A stretch of 60,177 nt of DNA from a virus. Taxonomy: Duplodnaviria; Caudoviricetes. Both the position numbers and the translations under genes were made by a program. The DNA lies in IMG/VR virus record IMGVR_UViG_3300049197_000009, positions 1 through 60,177 of that record. One strand, written 5' to 3'. The notes beneath the pieces were generated by a model. It searched no databases and was not told the origin of the DNA. It was given only the letters and a program-made list of their open reading frames with translations. Positions 36,382 through 39,808 of the stretch are shown one piece after another; positions within the stretch are counted from its first letter, which is position 1; every line of letters starts with the position of its first letter.

Positions 36382-36447
36382 TTTCTTCGATATTTCTGAT
36401 AAAATGAGTCCGTTGCTATGAATTAGTGGTCACGCTGGGAGTTGCGG

Positions 36448-37029
36448 ATGAAAGTGCGGAATTACCTAGAGGCAAAGTACGGAGTCGGAAATGCAACGAC
36501 GTTGCTCTATTGCGAGGCGAAGGCGTTTGGCATTCAGTACCCACCGGCGAGCGGCTGGCTCCGCCTGCACGGAGACATCGAGATTGATTCAGGGATGGCA
36601 AGGCGGCTGCGAGCGGCTTTGGAAAAGAGCGACAAACCATCGGCAAAGGATGGTCTTCGGGTGTTGGATATTGCGTGGCTGGAGCTTAAATCTTCGCCCG
36701 ACGCCACAGGCGATCTATTTCTTCAGTCAAAAGCCTGGAAGCGGCTGCGCATTCAGGCGCTCAACAAGTATGGCCGGAAGTGCCAATGTTGCGGCGCTAG
36801 TCCGTCCACCGGGGCCGTGCTGAACGTGGATCATGTCCTACCGCGCCGCCTGTTCCCGGCTTTAGCCTTGCATCTGGATAATCTGCAGGTGCTATGCGGT
36901 GATTGCAACGAGGGTAAGGGAAATTGGGATATGACCGATTCCCGGCCTGGCGCACGATTGCAGCCCGTTCGAGCGGTGCGAGCAATGCGCGCCCGCCTTA
37001 CTGGCGGCGGGATGGGGCGCGCCAACTAA
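36448..37029 (+). CDS. HNH endonuclease in immunity region
   Basis: W..LR...L..YG.KCQCCG, VDHV.P, NLQVLC.DCN.GK. Confidence 0.85.
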   Translation: MKVRNYLEAKYGVGNATTLLYCEAKAFGIQYPPASGWLRLHGDIEIDSGMARRLRAALEKSDKPSAKDGLRVLDIAWLELKSSPDATGDLFLQSKAWKRLRIQALNKYGRKCQCCGASPSTGAVLNVDHVLPRRLFPALALHLDNLQVLCGDCNEGKGNWDMTDSRPGARLQPVRAVRAMRARLTGGGMGRAN

Positions 37030-37250
37030 GTCCGATCTAGCAGTAGCCGAAGCATTCCCTTGATCTCGTCGGCCAGCCGCCTCATTTCTTCCATGTGTTC
37101 CGTTTGTAGTCTTGCAAGTATCTCAGCGTTCAGCGACCGACCGTTGTGTTCTGCCGACGCTCTAAGTTGATCCCGTAGCTCGCTCGGCAATCGGAGTGCC
37201 GTCTGTACATAATCTACCTGTTTCGCTTTTTGTTTGGGCGGTTTCGTCAT
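37026..37250 (-). CDS. Arc-family ribbon-helix-helix regulator
   Basis: LRLP.ELR..L...A..NGRSLNAEI.ARL. Confidence 0.9.
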   Translation of the reverse strand: MTKPPKQKAKQVDYVQTALRLPSELRDQLRASAEHNGRSLNAEILARLQTEHMEEMRRLADEIKGMLRLLLDRT

Positions 37251-37374
37251 CGCCCGATTTTTTCACGGGCCACCGTGCCAAAGTGTGAACTGTTTCCATT
37301 ATGGAAGCGGCAATGTGAGAATTCGTTACTTTTCAGTGGGTAAATTAGGCATAAAAGATACCTTTATTCTAATT

Positions 37375-37390
37375 GTAGGATCATTCCTAC
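37375..37390. promoter_or_regulatory. Palindromic regulator site GTAGGA-N4-TCCTAC
   Basis: Perfect 6-bp inverted repeat in AT-rich intergenic DNA upstream of 37435. Confidence 0.55.
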
Positions 37391-37434
37391 GGTGGTACAT
37401 TAGCTAGTGAATAATTTTACGGACGTACACTTAT

Positions 37435-37641
37435 ATGAATGTTGAGCAACAGTTGTTGAAGTCGTTTTATGCGTCTGATGGCAGGGGAAGGTTGGCAATA
37501 CTGGAATACGCCGCCAGCATGGCCGAGGACTGGCCTGATCTCGGTCTAGGTCTAGGGCAGATCATCGCCGACCCGGCTTGCCTCCCTGGTAGCGAGCTTG
37601 ATAATCTCGAACCGCCCCCTATCGTCGGTCCGTCGAAATAG
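37435..37641 (+). CDS. Small protein homologous to the CI C-terminal domain (candidate antirepressor)
   Basis: Ungapped 11/27 identity with CI C-terminus. Confidence 0.6.
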   Translation: MNVEQQLLKSFYASDGRGRLAILEYAASMAEDWPDLGLGLGQIIADPACLPGSELDNLEPPPIVGPSK

Positions 37642-37926
37642 ATCAAGAAGTCCAGCCTCATCCTCGTACGCAAGAATCATTCGAGCCTGCCGCCCAGAAA
37701 ATGCCGCAGCATCGTTTGTGGCTCGCGGTAGCCCCTTCCCGGTCTCAAGCCAAAGCGCATTGACGCCGCATGCAGCAGCGATTGACGCAATCAGCGTAGT
37801 CGCGTGAGACACCCCGGTCTCCAACTCCGACAGTGAGCCTTGAGCCATCCCGACCCTCTTAGCTAGTTGCTTCTGAGTCAGCTTCGCAGCCTTGCGAGCC
37901 TCTCTTATTCTTGTTCCTATAGACAT
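37552..37926 (-). CDS. cI: CI-like XRE repressor lacking an S24 peptidase domain (124 aa)
   Basis: IREARK...LTQ.QLA..VG..Q..LSELETG; WL.TGKG; divergent from cro. Confidence 0.9.
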   Translation of the reverse strand: MSIGTRIREARKAAKLTQKQLAKRVGMAQGSLSELETGVSHATTLIASIAAACGVNALWLETGKGLPRATNDAAAFSGRQARMILAYEDEAGLLDLFRRTDDRGRFEIIKLATREASRVGDDLP

Positions 37927-37999
37927 AACGATATTATCCGTTGCAATTAAATTGGTATTCCGATTGACAGCAAATATCGGAGTGCCTATAATTTGACTC
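37927..37999. promoter_or_regulatory. PR/PRM with two operators; both mRNAs apparently leaderless
   Basis: TTGACA(37964)-17-TATAAT(37987), ATG after 7 nt; operators at 37950 and 37975 match the PL operators. Confidence 0.85.
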
Positions 38000-38203
38000 A
38001 TGAACATTCCTTTCACTATCTCAGGCTTGCGAAAAGCCGGTCTTACCCAAGCGCAAATCGGTGATGCGGTCGGCCTGAAGCAGTCGAGCATCAGCGAGAT
38101 GGAGGCTGGTAAGTGCGGCGTCACACGCCCAACGCACGGCCTCGTAACTGGCCTGGCATCACTGGCGAAAAAATACCTGATCGCCACCGAGCCACCGCCT
38201 TGA
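38000..38203 (+). CDS. cro: Cro-like HTH protein
   Basis: GLTQAQIG..VG..QSSISEME.G. Confidence 0.85.
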   Translation: MNIPFTISGLRKAGLTQAQIGDAVGLKQSSISEMEAGKCGVTRPTHGLVTGLASLAKKYLIATEPPP

Positions 38204-38256
38204 CACCTCTCAATCAACCCGCAACACGTTCCAACTTTCCCCCACAGGAGCTAAAA

Positions 38257-38508
38257 GTGAAACCAGCAACCCGAACCATCGTAGTTAAAAGCTTGCTCAA
38301 CCCTGACGAATTTCTCGATTTTGAGCGGGCCTGCGCAACCAGTGATGTGCCACAAAGCCGCATCCTCCGCGACCTCGCCACCAGTTGGTCGCGATGGATG
38401 AATCGTACAACCAGATCGCGGCGACGAGAAAGGCCCGGCGCTGGCCAACACATGGCCATGTTTCCGAGCCGTCGCGGCGGCGCGCCAACCCCTCCAATGC
38501 GGCTTTGA
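38257..38508 (+). CDS. Small DNA-binding protein in cII position
   Basis: SD AGGAG, GTG start; RHH-like pattern. Confidence 0.55.
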   Translation: MKPATRTIVVKSLLNPDEFLDFERACATSDVPQSRILRDLATSWSRWMNRTTRSRRRERPGAGQHMAMFPSRRGGAPTPPMRL

Positions 38509-39313: not shown

Positions 39314-39808
39314 ATGCTCGCTCCAATCAATGTCAAAGATATGAAGGTGAGGCTGTCTTATGACGGCGAGACTGGGATATTCACTTACAAAAATGGGAGA
39401 AAATCGGGCCAACGCGCTGGCTGTTTGAACGGGCAAGGTTATCGCCGTTTGTGTATTCGATCAACATATATTGCCGAGCATCGGGCGGCATGGGCGATGC
39501 ACTATGGTTCCTTTCCAGGCGAAATTCTTGATCACATTAACGGGATCAAGAGTGACAACAGAATTTGCAACCTGCGCTTAGCAACGCCATCTCAAAATGT
39601 CGCCAACCGTGGGCTGAAATCCAACAACACGAGTGGGCTAAAGGGGATAACTAAGCTGCCGCATGGTCGCTGGCAGGCGCAAATTCGAATAGACGGAAAA
39701 TCAAAGTACCTAGGCTCCTTTGATACCAAGGAAGACGCTGCGGCAGCATACGCAGTGGTGGCTGGGCGTGCCTTTGGTGAGTTCCACAATTCAGGGATTG
39801 CATCATGA
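39314..39808 (+). CDS. HNH endonuclease with AP2 domain (homing type)
   Basis: DHINGIKSDNRICNLR; SG.KG...WQAQI...YLG.F. Confidence 0.9.
   Translation: MLAPINVKDMKVRLSYDGETGIFTYKNGRKSGQRAGCLNGQGYRRLCIRSTYIAEHRAAWAMHYGSFPGEILDHINGIKSDNRICNLRLATPSQNVANRGLKSNNTSGLKGITKLPHGRWQAQIRIDGKSKYLGSFDTKEDAAAAYAVVAGRAFGEFHNSGIAS

What the first reader, a model, noticed from the sequence alone, without database searches (positions are those of the whole stretch)
37374..37926. Convergent mini-gene that mimics the repressor's own C-terminal domain: candidate host-signal-controlled lysis switch
Seen: CI is 124 aa with no autocleavage domain. The convergent ORF at 37435 has no HTH but aligns without gaps to the CI C-terminus (EQQLLKSFYASDGRGRLAILEYAASMA vs EAGLLDLFRRTDDRGRFEIIKLATREA, 11/27 identical), in a part that does not overlap cI and is diverged as DNA. 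Its 3' end overlaps cI antisense by 90 bp. Upstream sits TGTAGG-N6-CCTACG, unlike the CI operators but similar to the GacA/UvrY-type box TGTAAG-N6-CTTACA. Inference: a host response regulator drives a dominant-negative copy of the oligomerisation domain (plus antisense RNA) that inactivates CI, giving SOS-independent induction.
Basis: partly seen in the sequence, partly recalled or inferred. Interest (0 to 1): 0.82.

Follow-up and report, generated by a model that had tools for sequence, protein, structure and literature searches.

The report
Mini-gene mimicking phage repressor tail
A small gene that sits tail-to-tail with the repressor gene in a group of soil phages encodes a copy of the repressor's own pairing domain, and it probably switches the repressor off when a host signalling protein turns the small gene on.

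Summary
The 68-aa ORF (37435-37641, +) is a real, conserved gene. A full HMMER scan found 10 small homologues. Four further viral loci carry the same convergent arrangement. Nine more mini/repressor pairs were shown, from the proteins alone, to overlap antisense in the same codon register: 10 of 10 cognate pairs, 0 of 90 non-cognate.

Its N-terminal two-helix hairpin is homologous to the repressor's C-terminal hairpin (hhalign P 7e-6; reciprocal HMM hits).

The upstream palindrome is better read as GTAGGA-N4-TCCTAC. It is kept in 5 of 5 loci, although the repressors' DNA-binding domains differ. In Oxalobacteraceae-type genomes the same palindrome lies upstream of an Fnr-like gene, often directly after a NarL-family response-regulator gene. 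It resembles the BvgA inverted heptad.

Best reading: a SinI/SinR-like, AimX-like small antirepressor wired to a host regulator. Binding, derepression and the identity of the palindrome binder are untested. GacA itself is not supported. This is a new variant of a known kind.

The parts
37435..37641 (+). Mini-gene, 68 aa. Residues 3-29 form a predicted helix-turn-helix-like two-helix hairpin homologous to the repressor C-terminal hairpin. The tail (residues 40-68) is read antisense to cI.
   Evidence: ORF list. 10 small homologues in the full HMMER scan and 14 in the profile search. AF2 predicts helices 3-13 and 16-29 at pLDDT 86-93, with a disordered tail. hhalign against the CI C-terminal domain, P 7.1e-6.
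37552..37641 (.). Convergent overlap of the mini-gene 3' end with the cI 3' end, 90 nt, codon opposite codon (mini residue k lies opposite cI residue 165-k).
   Evidence: The register is the same in all 5 DNA loci, from the coordinates. 10 of 10 cognate protein pairs are fully codon-compatible over 26-32 codons, against 0 of 90 non-cognate.
37552..37926 (-). cI repressor, 124 aa: an N-terminal HTH_3 domain plus a C-terminal two-helix hairpin. No S24 autocleavage domain.
   Evidence: Pfam. 54 homologues. Alignment A1. AF2 mean pLDDT 86.9.
37564..37665 (-). Part of cI that encodes the C-terminal hairpin (residues 88-121, motif LLDLFRRTDDRGRFEIIKLA). Presumed dimerisation/oligomerisation element.
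   Evidence: Conserved in the CI family (E90, R98, D101, R103 nearly invariant). Predicted helices 88-99 and 102-121.
37375..37390 (.). Perfect palindrome GTAGGA-TCAT-TCCTAC in the mini-gene promoter region. Candidate operator for a NarL/FixJ-type host response regulator, or for the Arc-like protein.
   Evidence: Conserved in L019, L020, L081 and L085. A search with it recovered two new loci that carry the module. Host sites. BvgA site TAAGAAATTTCCTA.
37373..37401 (+). Weak sigma-70-like promoter for the mini-gene: TTGTAG, 17 nt, TACATT. The palindrome lies across the -35 hexamer and the spacer.
   Evidence: Read from the sequence. The TTGTAG and TAnATT blocks are aligned in the related loci. 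It was not picked up by the consensus scan. The start site is unmapped.
37026..37250 (-). Arc/Mnt-like ribbon-helix-helix protein, 74 aa, transcribed divergently from the mini-gene and on the same strand as cI.
   Evidence: Pfam Arc, E 3.2e-12. Homologues sit in the same position in L020 and L085 but are absent from the L019 contig (96% complete) and from L081.
37964..37992 (+). PR-like promoter TTGACA-17-TATAAT for cro, flanked by candidate CI operator half-sites (ATCGGAGTGCC / GGTATTCCGAT).
   Evidence: 12 of 12 consensus match. Inverted repeats I6 and I7 and direct repeat D11.
38000..38203 (+). Cro-like HTH protein, 67 aa.
   Evidence: Pfam HTH_31/HTH_3 and phrog_6831.

Best explanation
The mini-gene encodes a small antirepressor that is a paralogue of the repressor's own C-terminal pairing hairpin.

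Proposed mechanism:
1. CI consists of an HTH domain and a two-helix hairpin. It needs hairpin-to-hairpin pairing to bind its operators around PR.
2. When the mini-protein is made, its hairpin (residues 3-29) pairs with the CI hairpin in place of a second CI subunit. This gives a DNA-binding-defective heteromer, so PR is derepressed without proteolysis and without SOS. The logic is that of SinI/SinR and AimX/AimC.
3. Expression is set at a promoter that carries the conserved palindrome GTAGGA-N4-TCCTAC. That is an inverted-heptad site of the type bound by NarL/FixJ-family response regulators. The same site marks a conserved host promoter beside such a regulator gene.
4. In 3 of 5 loci a divergent Arc-like repressor gene probably adds phage-encoded control.
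5. The mini-gene and cI transcripts converge and overlap, which gives mutual transcriptional or antisense interference.

Shown here: gene conservation, the homology, the synteny, the overlap register, conservation of the palindrome and its host context.

Inferred: binding, derepression, which protein binds the palindrome and with what sign, and any role of the RNA overlap.
For: Real gene:
- phmmer against 1.84 billion representatives gave 12 proteins at E<=0.001. These are the ORF itself, 10 small homologues (64-120 aa, 44-57% identity) and one 1231-aa repetitive hit that I set aside.
- A profile search gave 14 proteins.
- The conserved part, MTDEQKLLxAFRxSDxRGRxSILxYAxSMAEDWP, lies outside cI.

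Homology to the CI C-terminal domain:
- hhalign P 7.1e-6.
- A CI C-terminal HMM run against 26,927 six-frame segments has the mini-ORFs as its best non-repressor hits: L019 1.5e-4, L020-type 3.3e-4, the window's own only 0.29.
- A mini-protein N-terminal HMM has the repressor C-terminal domains as its best non-self hits: 2.6e-6, 1.4e-3 and 0.022.
- Both parts are predicted as a two-helix hairpin.

Synteny:
- The same convergent overlap is seen in L019, L020, L081 and L085.
- 10 of 10 cognate mini/CI pairs are codon-compatible antisense, against 0 of 90 non-cognate.

The module travels as a cassette:
- The repressor (through its C-terminal domain) is the only protein found in all of G000, G001, G003 and G004. 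The mini-protein was found by BLAST in two of the three others and by position in the third.
- The repressor N-terminal domains differ: HTH_3, YdaS-like, and HTH_3/Phage_CI_repr.

Palindrome:
- It is kept in 5 of 5 loci while its spacer varies.
- A search with the palindrome alone recovered L081 and L085.

Host link:
- 11 sites in 5 genomes against 1 control site.
- 66 sites against 34 control sites in 151 genomes.
- In 18 of 36 host loci the palindrome lies about 200-250 bp upstream of an Fnr-like gene. In 13 of those it directly follows a NarL-family regulator gene.
- The BvgA optimal site is TAAGAAATTTCCTA (passages read).
- None of the phage records encodes a GerE/LuxR-type HTH.

Precedents (passages read): AimX binds the AimC C-terminal oligomerisation domain and is compared with SinI/SinR. 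TF-smORF modules inactivate cI without proteolysis.
Against: - No experiment and no expression data bear on this.
- BLASTP of the window's two proteins finds nothing. The window ORF's own score against the CI C-terminal HMM is weak (E 0.05 to 0.29).
- There is no clear Shine-Dalgarno sequence before the ATG, and the -35/-10 hexamers are weak (7 of 12). The consensus scan missed them.
- With that promoter the palindrome covers -33 to -18, a position more typical of repression than of activation.
- The -10 block is not at a fixed distance in L081 and L085.
- An Arc-like repressor gene sits next door in 3 of 5 loci, so the palindrome need not be a host site.
- Enrichment of the palindrome across the whole bacterial family is only about two-fold (66 against 34).
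- The Fnr-like protein, rather than the response regulator, could be what binds it in the host.
- Cognate mini/C-terminal-domain pairs are not more alike than non-cognate ones: 27 of 120 permutations reach the cognate sum (n=5, one anchor one residue out of register).
- That the CI hairpin mediates oligomerisation is itself an inference from analogy.
Confidence: 0.55

Rival explanations
1. The antirepressor is the same, but it is controlled by the phage and not by the host. The neighbouring Arc/Mnt-like ribbon-helix-helix protein binds the palindrome and keeps the mini-gene off in the lysogen. This would be a secondary immunity region like P22 immI, which has Mnt/Arc, Ant and the sar antisense RNA (recalled from the literature).
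For: - An Arc-like gene is transcribed divergently from the mini-gene in the window, in L020 and in L085.
- The palindrome overlaps the -35/spacer of the best promoter candidate, which is a repressor-like position.
- L019 has no Arc homologue on a 96% complete contig, and it carries the only imperfect palindrome (ATAGGA...TCCTAC).
- The convergent overlap resembles antisense control.
Against: - L081 has a perfect palindrome but no Arc-like gene in the 3.4 kb upstream. That contig is only 11% complete.
- The same palindrome recurs at conserved host promoters that are not in prophages and have no Arc-like gene nearby.
- Its 14-bp core matches the inverted-heptad type of NarL-family sites.
Confidence: 0.3
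2. The mini-protein is not an inhibitor but a partner or decoy. It may cap or stabilise CI. It may tune CI's oligomeric state for immunity or for the decision on infection. Or it may soak up a third factor that targets the hairpin, such as a foreign antirepressor, a protease adaptor or a host protein.
For: - The homology shows only that the two hairpins are of one kind, not the sign of the effect.
- Hairpin-bearing small ORFs occur in tandem, and fused to other domains, in host mobile elements without a visible repressor partner. This suggests a general interaction module.
Against: - All well-studied cases in which a small protein resembles or binds a repressor's oligomerisation domain are antagonists: SinI and AimX and the TF-smORF modules.
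- Convergent, mutually interfering transcription with cI fits opposing roles.
Confidence: 0.12
3. The ORF is a non-functional by-product: a decayed inverted duplication of the cI 3' end, or an antisense frame kept open by the codon usage of cI.
For: - The tail (residues 40-68) is dictated by cI on the other strand.
- In-register antisense frames tend to stay open in GC-rich genes.
- No RNA evidence is available.
Against: - The conserved part of the protein is the 5' part, which does not overlap cI.
- It keeps frame, start and motif across at least 18 homologues at 43-54% identity, and in loci whose DNA is otherwise unalignable.
- DNA identity to the cI segment is 47%, with third positions at chance.
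- Its promoter region is conserved too.
Confidence: 0.03

Closest known systems
SinI/SinR (and SlrA/SlrR) of Bacillus subtilis
   Same: A repressor with a phage-type HTH domain and a C-terminal helical pairing domain is antagonised by a small protein that is homologous to that pairing domain and forms a heteromer with it. This is taken from the abstract of PMC3163267 in the listing and from passages. Foldseek also lists 1b0n_A (the SinR/SinI complex) among the matches of the CI model, but through the HTH domain.
   Different: - No sequence membership: no Pfam SinI or any other family at E<=1 for the mini-proteins or the CI C-terminal domain.
- A phage lysis-lysogeny switch in proteobacterial-type phages, not a chromosomal biofilm switch.
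- The genes are convergent and overlapping, not sinI upstream of sinR (that order is recalled).
- A different upstream regulator.
AimX/AimC of arbitrium phages (bioRxiv 10.1101/2025.11.23.689978; PDB 9sf2)
   Same: A small phage antirepressor binds the repressor's C-terminal oligomerisation domain, takes the place of the second subunit and blocks DNA binding (passages read). 9sf2_A appears among the Foldseek matches of the CI model.
   Different: [quoted passage not shown]
- It is controlled by AimR/AimP peptide signalling.
- It belongs to Bacillus phages.
TF-smORF modules of linear plasmid-like phages (Silpe et al. 2023, PMC10432266)
   Same: - A small ORF transcribed divergently from a transcription-factor gene inactivates cI without proteolysis and independently of SOS.
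- Some modules use LuxR-type receptors that sense host signals (passages read).
- Here too a small ORF sits next to cI and, in 3 of 5 loci, is divergent from a small DNA-binding protein gene.
   Different: - Those smORFs 'lack homologues and predictable domains'. Here the small protein is recognisably a paralogue of its target's C-terminal domain, which suggests the mechanism.
- Here the neighbour is an Arc-like RHH protein and is not always present.
- Here the promoter carries a site shared with a host regulon.
- The supplementary tables of that paper were not available to me.
P22 immI region (Mnt, Arc, Ant, sar RNA); recalled, not read here
   Same: A secondary immunity region in which ribbon-helix-helix repressors and an antisense RNA keep an antirepressor gene silent.
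   Different: The mini-protein has no similarity to Ant (no PHROG or Pfam hit) and is about four times smaller. The module lies directly against cI.
TP901-1 CI CTD1 'helical hook' dimerisation domain (PDB 6fxa; PMC4941734, abstract seen in the listing)
   Same: A short helical dimerisation element follows the HTH domain of a non-cleavable phage repressor. 6fxa_A is rank 1 of 48,161 chains for the mini-protein model.
   Different: Z is only 2.7 (rmsd 3.0 over 34 residues) and is tied with unrelated helical hairpins, so this is a lead and not evidence. TP901-1's antagonist MOR is an HTH protein and not a mimic of the C-terminal domain.
NarL/FixJ-family response-regulator sites: BvgA inverted heptad TAAGAAATTTCCTA (PMC7250471) and the GacA box TGTAAGN6CTTACA (motif string found in 3 papers, listing only)
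   Same: - The 14-bp core TAGGA-N4-TCCTA is an inverted heptad. 10 of 14 (window) and 11 of 14 (L019) positions are identical to the Pfha primary BvgA site.
- At host promoters a further TCCTAC half-site lies 21 nt beyond the right arm. BvgA dimers bind with their centres spaced 22 bp apart.
   Different: It is not the GacA consensus, because a symmetric A-to-G change is invariant in 5 of 5 loci. No binding protein has been identified. The adjacent host regulator is below every NCBIfam equivalog cut-off.

Membership tests
SinI/SinR-type antagonist-repressor pair | The small antagonist is homologous to the repressor's C-terminal pairing domain. | tested here: met
   hhalign P 7.1e-6. Reciprocal HMM searches over 26,927 segments. 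11 of 27 identical without gaps.
SinI/SinR-type antagonist-repressor pair | Sequence membership in the Pfam SinI multimerisation domain. | tested here: not met
   No Pfam family at E<=1 for the mini-protein. CI matches HTH families only. 0 families for 9 further hairpin proteins.
SinI/SinR-type antagonist-repressor pair | Both partners form a two-helix hairpin (helical hook). | tested here: inconclusive
   AF2 monomer predictions only: CI helices 88-99 and 102-121; mini-protein helices 3-13 and 16-29. The fold searches are not discriminating.
SinI/SinR-type antagonist-repressor pair | The antagonist forms a heteromer with the repressor and abolishes DNA binding. | not testable with these tools
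   This needs two-hybrid, SEC-MALS or EMSA experiments.
TF-smORF induction module (Silpe et al. 2023) | A small ORF transcribed divergently from a transcription-factor gene in a temperate phage. | tested here: met
   An Arc-like gene is divergent from the mini-gene in the window, L020 and L085, which is 3 of 5 loci. In L019 and L081 the divergent neighbour has no DNA-binding family.
TF-smORF induction module (Silpe et al. 2023) | The TF activates the smORF, and the smORF inactivates cI without proteolysis. | not testable with these tools
   This needs reporter and induction assays.
GacA/UvrY box | 18-bp palindrome TGTAAG-N6-CTTACA. | tested here: not met
   The window has TGTAGG-N6-CCTACG. The G/C departure is invariant in 5 of 5 loci, and the outer base of the right arm is G, C, A, T, T. 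The conserved unit is GTAGGA-N4-TCCTAC.
NarL/FixJ-family response-regulator operator (inverted heptads) | Two inverted 7-bp half-sites with TA outermost, further half-sites at about two helical turns, and location at regulated promoters next to the regulator gene. | tested here: inconclusive
   The core matches the BvgA Pfha site at 10-11 of 14 positions. An extra half-site at +31 or -21 occurs in 15 of 36 host loci, and a NarL-family regulator gene lies directly upstream in 13 of 36. No binding data. The Fnr-like protein or the Arc-like protein could be the binder.
LexA/lambda-CI-type autocleavable repressor | C-terminal Peptidase_S24 domain. | tested here: not met
   No PF00717 in CI. Some relatives of the N-terminal domain (P0042, P0053, P0054) do carry it.
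P22 Ant-type antirepressor | Homology to Ant/KilAC-type antirepressor families. | tested here: not met
   0 PHROG and 0 Pfam families for the mini-protein.

The most novel reading that the evidence does not exclude
The unit is a portable induction cassette with three parts: a promoter carrying a host response-regulator site, a mimic mini-gene, and the repressor's pairing hairpin. It can be grafted onto unrelated DNA-binding domains. It lets soil phages of Oxalobacteraceae-type hosts eavesdrop on a host two-component pathway, the same one that drives a conserved Fnr-like regulator and is therefore perhaps an oxygen, redox or stress signal. The phage would then leave the lysogen without DNA damage. 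The fixed codon-on-codon antisense overlap with cI would make the two genes mutually exclusive at the RNA level as well.
Probability: 0.3. Interest if true: 0.8.

Novelty: new variant of a known kind. Interest (0 to 1): 0.66.

Why it matters
Small antirepressors are emerging as the way many phages leave lysogeny without SOS. In most described cases the small protein has no recognisable relatives and its mechanism has to be worked out case by case.

Here the sequence itself suggests the mechanism, because the small protein is a copy of the target's pairing domain. It also suggests the input, because the promoter site is shared with a conserved host promoter beside a two-component regulator gene. 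That gives a directly testable link between a host signalling pathway and prophage induction in soil betaproteobacteria.

The family has no Pfam or PHROG model. It has no match in 50,697 deposited phage genomes. The hairpin module also occurs in tandem and fused forms in bacterial mobile elements, so it may be a wider interaction currency.

Tried and rejected
- Complex prediction of CI residues 70-124 with mini-protein residues 1-45, both given as alignments: median score 0.30 against a mark of 0.32, so no verdict. This is no evidence either way.
- BLASTP of the two window proteins: no alignment.
- DNA search of 3 kb around the locus in deposited phages: no match. tblastn of CI in the same collection: 19 records, N-terminal domain only, none covering 80%. 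tblastn of the mini-protein: no match.
- Pattern-based locus searches with the single ORF, and the word-indexed protein search (self only), missed relatives that the full HMMER scan later found.
With A4 it returned only chance AEDWP matches: L023-L025 are tail and metabolic genes.
- Genome-contig scan with the CI alignment: 13 loci, mostly matches to the N-terminal domain only.
- LexA box CTGT-N8-ACAG: 14 matches in the window against 16.35 expected, none at the mini-gene promoter.
- Rfam over 36900-38300: nothing.
- No GerE/LuxR-type HTH in the five phage records.
- Literature search for the palindrome string returned only unrelated papers.
- Sequencing runs: no RNA holder listed. Contigs of one other soil run (X2) carry a variant of the mini-gene with 3 synonymous and 3 non-synonymous listed changes (G16D and R19K are residues seen in homologues). 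The cI N-terminal domain in that run shows 7 of 7 synonymous changes. Depth was 3, from one contig, which is too thin to use.
- Cognate-versus-non-cognate similarity test, n=5: not significant.
- Foldseek of the mini-protein model: nothing. VIA-align top hit is the TP901-1 CI dimerisation domain, but Z is 2.7 and tied.
Full report
WHAT IS THERE

The window is a 60,177-bp viral record. It was found in soil and rhizosphere metagenome runs.

Positions 36.4-39.8 kb hold a classic immunity region:
- an HNH endonuclease gene (36442-37029, +);
- an Arc-like ribbon-helix-helix gene (37250-37026, -; Pfam Arc, E 3.2e-12);
- the 68-aa ORF in question (37435-37641, +);
- cI (37926-37552, -; 124 aa; HTH_3, E 5.1e-11; no Peptidase_S24);
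- a perfect TTGACA-17-TATAAT promoter (37964-37992);
- a Cro-like gene (38000-38203, +).

The ORF and cI converge and share 90 nt (37552-37641).

CHECK OF THE OBSERVATION

The gap-free match of ORF residues 4-30 to CI residues 90-116 is 11 of 27 identical. Its BLOSUM62 score is 42. That score was reached by 5 of 5000 shuffles of the ORF and 13 of 5000 shuffles of CI.

BLASTP itself reported nothing at E<=100, so the pair alone is only suggestive.

As DNA, the two segments are 38 of 81 identical, with third codon positions 8 of 27. This is old divergence at the protein level. It is not a recent inverted duplication, and it is not an RNA hairpin.

The palindrome exists. Its true symmetry is GTAGGA-TCAT-TCCTAC (37375-37390), a perfect 6-4-6 repeat. 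Within the window it is not beyond chance (1 match, 0.76 expected).

THE CI FAMILY

CI has 54 relatives at E<=0.001 among proteins of 68-217 aa.

I aligned 35 of them, leaving out the near-identical P0002 and the shorter or partial matches. In this alignment the C-terminal stretch RMILAYEDExxLLDLFRRTDDRGRFEIxKLAxRE is as well conserved as the HTH domain. E90, R98, D101 and R103 are nearly invariant.

AlphaFold2 on this alignment gave a mean pLDDT of 86.9. It predicts a five-helix HTH domain, a poorly ordered linker (residues 76-79 below 50) and two C-terminal helices, 88-99 and 102-121.

Some relatives of the N-terminal domain carry Peptidase_S24 instead (P0042, P0053, P0054). In deposited phages the N-terminal domain matches D3-type cI genes over residues 1-78 only. 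So in this family a short helical hairpin stands where autocleavable repressors have their dimerisation/cleavage domain.

THE MINI-ORF IS A REAL GENE

The word-indexed search found only the ORF itself. The full HMMER scan of 1.84 billion representatives found 12 proteins at E<=0.001:
- the ORF itself;
- ten small proteins of 64-120 aa at 44-57% identity;
- one 1231-aa repetitive protein (P0057), which I set aside.

A profile search added more, giving 14 in all at E<=0.001.

Their common core is MTDEQKLLxAFRxSDxRGRxSILxYAxSMAEDWP. For the alignments I left out P0061, P0066 and P0067, which have N-terminally extended gene calls, and P0074, which is identical to the L020 product.

This core is encoded by the part of the gene that does NOT overlap cI. 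Its conservation therefore cannot be a shadow of cI.

AlphaFold2 on 19 sequences predicts helices 3-13 and 16-29 at pLDDT 86-93, followed by a disordered tail. This is the same helix, two-residue turn, helix layout as the CI C-terminus.

HOMOLOGY BETWEEN THE MINI-PROTEIN AND THE REPRESSOR TAIL

- hhalign of a 14-sequence CI C-terminal alignment against the ORF gives P 7.1e-6 and probability 84% over 33 columns.
- An HMM of the CI C-terminal domain, run against all 26,927 stop-to-stop segments of the window and 140 loci, has the convergent mini-ORFs as its best hits after the repressors themselves: L019 1.5e-4, the L020 type 3.3e-4, and the window's own only 0.29 (0.051 in the smaller set).
- In reverse, an HMM built only from mini-protein N-termini has the repressor C-terminal domains as its best non-self hits: L019 2.6e-6, L020 1.4e-3, window 0.022.

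THE ARRANGEMENT IS CONSERVED

Searching viral contigs with the CI C-terminal alignment gave L019 and L020-L022. Both types have a convergent small ORF with the motif, overlapping the repressor's 3' end:
- L019: DEIQLLTAFRKSDRRGRRSILTFAKN;
- L020: EEEQLLAAYRASDERGRSTTLARA.

Most are presumably chance. Two, L081 and L085, are new instances of the whole module, and L105 and L108 repeat the L020 type.

The overlaps are 90, 105, 57, 117 and 81 nt. In all five loci the two reading frames are codon opposite codon, from the coordinates modulo 3.

For nine further mini-proteins no DNA could be read. Each shares its contig length with a CI homologue. The four others had no such partner and were not tested.

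For these nine, and for the window pair, the mini-protein's tail is fully codon-compatible as the in-register antisense of its partner's C-terminus over 26-32 codons. That holds for 10 of 10 cognate pairs and for 0 of 90 non-cognate combinations.

In total this gives 14 loci with the same architecture.

THE MODULE IS A CASSETTE

Among the four larger phage records (G000, G001, G003, G004) the repressor is the only protein found in all of them, and it matches through its C-terminal domain. The mini-protein was found by BLAST in two of the three other records and by position in the third.

The repressors' N-terminal domains differ:
- HTH_3 in the window, L019 and L081;
- a YdaS-like HTH in L020, below the Pfam cut-off;
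- HTH_3/Phage_CI_repr in L085.

The Cro-like genes differ as well. So the hairpin, its mimic and the mimic's promoter travel together across immunity types.

THE PROMOTER AND THE PALINDROME

Upstream of all five mini-genes the arms GTAGGA and TCCTAC are kept (ATAGGA in L019). The 4-nt spacer varies: TCAT, GGAT, TTTT, CTAA, TTGT. A TAnATT block follows. Invariant arms with a free spacer are the signature of a dimeric DNA-binding protein.

In the window, TTGTAG-17-TACATT (37373-37401) is the best sigma-70-like promoter. It matches 7 of 12 consensus positions and was missed by the scan. With that promoter the palindrome spans -33 to -18. The spacing is less regular in L081 and L085, and no start site is known. 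Activation versus repression is therefore open.

WHO BINDS THE PALINDROME?

CI and Cro are unlikely, because their types differ among the loci.

None of the five phage records encodes a GerE/LuxR-type HTH.

An Arc-like gene is the divergent neighbour in 3 of 5 loci (window, L020, L085). It is absent from the 96% complete L019 contig and from the fragmentary L081 contig.

The palindrome also occurs in bacterial genomes:
- In five Oxalobacteraceae-type genomes (Massilia, Janthinobacterium, Duganella, Solimicrobium, reached through CI-like loci) it occurs at 11 sites. The reversed control pattern occurs once.
- In 151 genomes of that GTDB family it occurs at 66 sites in 43 genomes, against 34 control sites. 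Two of the 66 sites are in G090, an unpublished genome.
- None of the 36 host loci that were fetched holds a mini-gene.
- In 18 of the 36 the palindrome lies about 200-250 bp upstream of an orthologous Fnr-like gene (67-100% identity).
- In 13 of those 18 it directly follows an orthologous NarL-family response-regulator gene (79-100% identity).
- In 15 of the 36 a further TCCTAC or GTAGGA half-site lies 21 nt beyond one arm, just before a CATATT block.

The regulator's best NCBIfam model is UvrY/SirA/GacA, at 166.9 bits against a cut-off of 280. It is a NarL-family member but not a GacA equivalog.

The optimal binding site of BvgA, a NarL/FixJ-family regulator of a betaproteobacterium, is the inverted heptad TAAGAAATTTCCTA, and BvgA dimers bind with centres spaced 22 bp apart (PMC7250471, passages read). 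The phage core TAGGA-N4-TCCTA matches that site at 10 of 14 positions in the window and 11 of 14 in L019.

I therefore rate a host NarL-type regulator as the most likely binder, at about 0.5. The Arc-like protein comes next at about 0.3. The Fnr-like protein is a further candidate, because Crp/Fnr sites also have a 5-4-5 layout (recalled).

The symmetric G/C that departs from TGTAAG-N6-CTTACA is invariant in all five loci. That motif string was found in 3 papers (listing only).

MECHANISM PROPOSED

Shown:
- a conserved small gene;
- its homology to the repressor's tail;
- a fixed convergent overlap;
- a conserved promoter palindrome that is shared with a host promoter.

Inferred:
1. The CI hairpin mediates dimerisation or oligomerisation needed for operator binding. 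This is by analogy with SinR, with the TP901-1 CI CTD1 'helical hook' (abstract in the listing) and with AimC.
2. The mini-protein's hairpin pairs with the CI hairpin and caps it, which releases PR without proteolysis or SOS.
3. The signal enters at P_mini through the palindrome.
4. No terminator was found between the two genes, so transcripts from P_mini and from cI collide and are complementary over 57-117 nt. Transcripts from cI may also run on across the whole mini-gene into the Arc-like gene, which lies on the same strand. This would give a second, RNA-level lock.

No LexA box lies near the promoter, which is consistent with an SOS-independent route.

COMPARISON WITH WHAT IS KNOWN

The logic is that of SinI/SinR and of AimX/AimC. 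[quoted passage not shown]

The genomic layout resembles the TF-smORF modules of Silpe et al. and, from memory, P22 immI.

It is not a sequence member of any of these. There are no Pfam, PHROG or NCBIfam families for the mini-proteins, no match in 50,697 deposited phage records, and no Ant-like domain.

What is new is this combination:
- the antagonist is a recognisable paralogue of its target's pairing domain;
- it is in proteobacterial-type phages;
- it is locked to cI by a fixed antisense overlap;
- it is portable across DNA-binding domains;
- it sits behind a site shared with a host regulon.

My literature searches found no description of such a pair.

LIMITS
- No expression or binding data exist.
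- The complex prediction gave no verdict.
- No RNA run holds the locus.
- The cognate-similarity test is not significant (27 of 120 permutations, n=5).
- The hosts are inferred from relatives of the CI N-terminal domain and from the distribution of the palindrome.
- The host loci examined are those the tool chose to fetch (36 of about 77 sites).

Noticed in passing
L159:1474-2031(-), L162:1465-1944(-), L160:917-1805(-), L161:284-691(-): The same hairpin motif (E..LL..FR..D.RGR..I...A.EDWP), often followed by a P..LRLV-like strand, occurs in Oxalobacteraceae-type genomes outside the cI context. It is found as the C-terminus of 150-190-aa proteins and as two or three tandem small ORFs. One array lies beside dnaQ in what looks like an integrated element. 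Matches were found in 3 of 301 genomes. No Pfam family.
   Followed up: partly
L152:1501-1516 and 17 further host loci (L153, L165, L176-L178, L180-L191): A conserved host promoter architecture: the GTAGGA-N4-TCCTAC palindrome, a further TCCTAC half-site 21 nt on, then CATATT. It lies upstream of an Fnr-like regulator gene and often directly follows a NarL-family response-regulator gene and a universal-stress-protein gene. It looks like a FixJ-to-FixK-style cascade, which I have not seen described for these bacteria.
   Followed up: partly
L155:1501-1516, L156:1501-1516, L175: In two Massilia genomes the same palindrome lies only 10-13 nt before the start codon of a 420-442-aa secreted protein with a PEP-CTERM-like C-terminal anchor. 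A 49%-identical relative lies next to the palindrome in L175.
   Followed up: no
window 37190-37200 and 37976-37986: The 11-mer ATCGGAGTGCC, a candidate CI/Cro operator half-site at PR, recurs exactly inside the Arc-like gene. There it overlaps a + strand promoter-like site, TCGGCA-18-CATAAT (37184-37213). This could be a CI-controlled antisense promoter, or it could be chance (about 0.2 expected for any 11-mer repeat in 1.3 kb).
   Followed up: no
window 37313-37335 and aligned blocks in L019, L020, L081, L085: A second conserved block, (T/C)GTGAGAATTCGT(T/G)ACTTTT, lies about 50 nt upstream of the palindrome in all five loci, whatever the divergent neighbour gene is. It may be the divergent promoter or a second regulator site.
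   Followed up: no
window 36442-37029 (+) and 39314-39808 (+): Two different HNH endonuclease genes (HNH and HNH_3+AP2) flank the immunity region. This suggests homing-endonuclease-driven mosaicism around the switch.
   Followed up: no
window 37234-37257 (+): A terminator-like hairpin with a T-run on the + strand overlaps the 5' end of the Arc-like gene. It would stop rightward transcription before the mini-gene promoter.
   Followed up: no
P0042, P0053, P0054: Proteins that share the window CI's N-terminal HTH domain (50-62% coverage) carry Peptidase_S24 C-terminal domains. One DNA-binding domain is thus found with either an SOS-cleavable domain or the hairpin domain.
   Followed up: no
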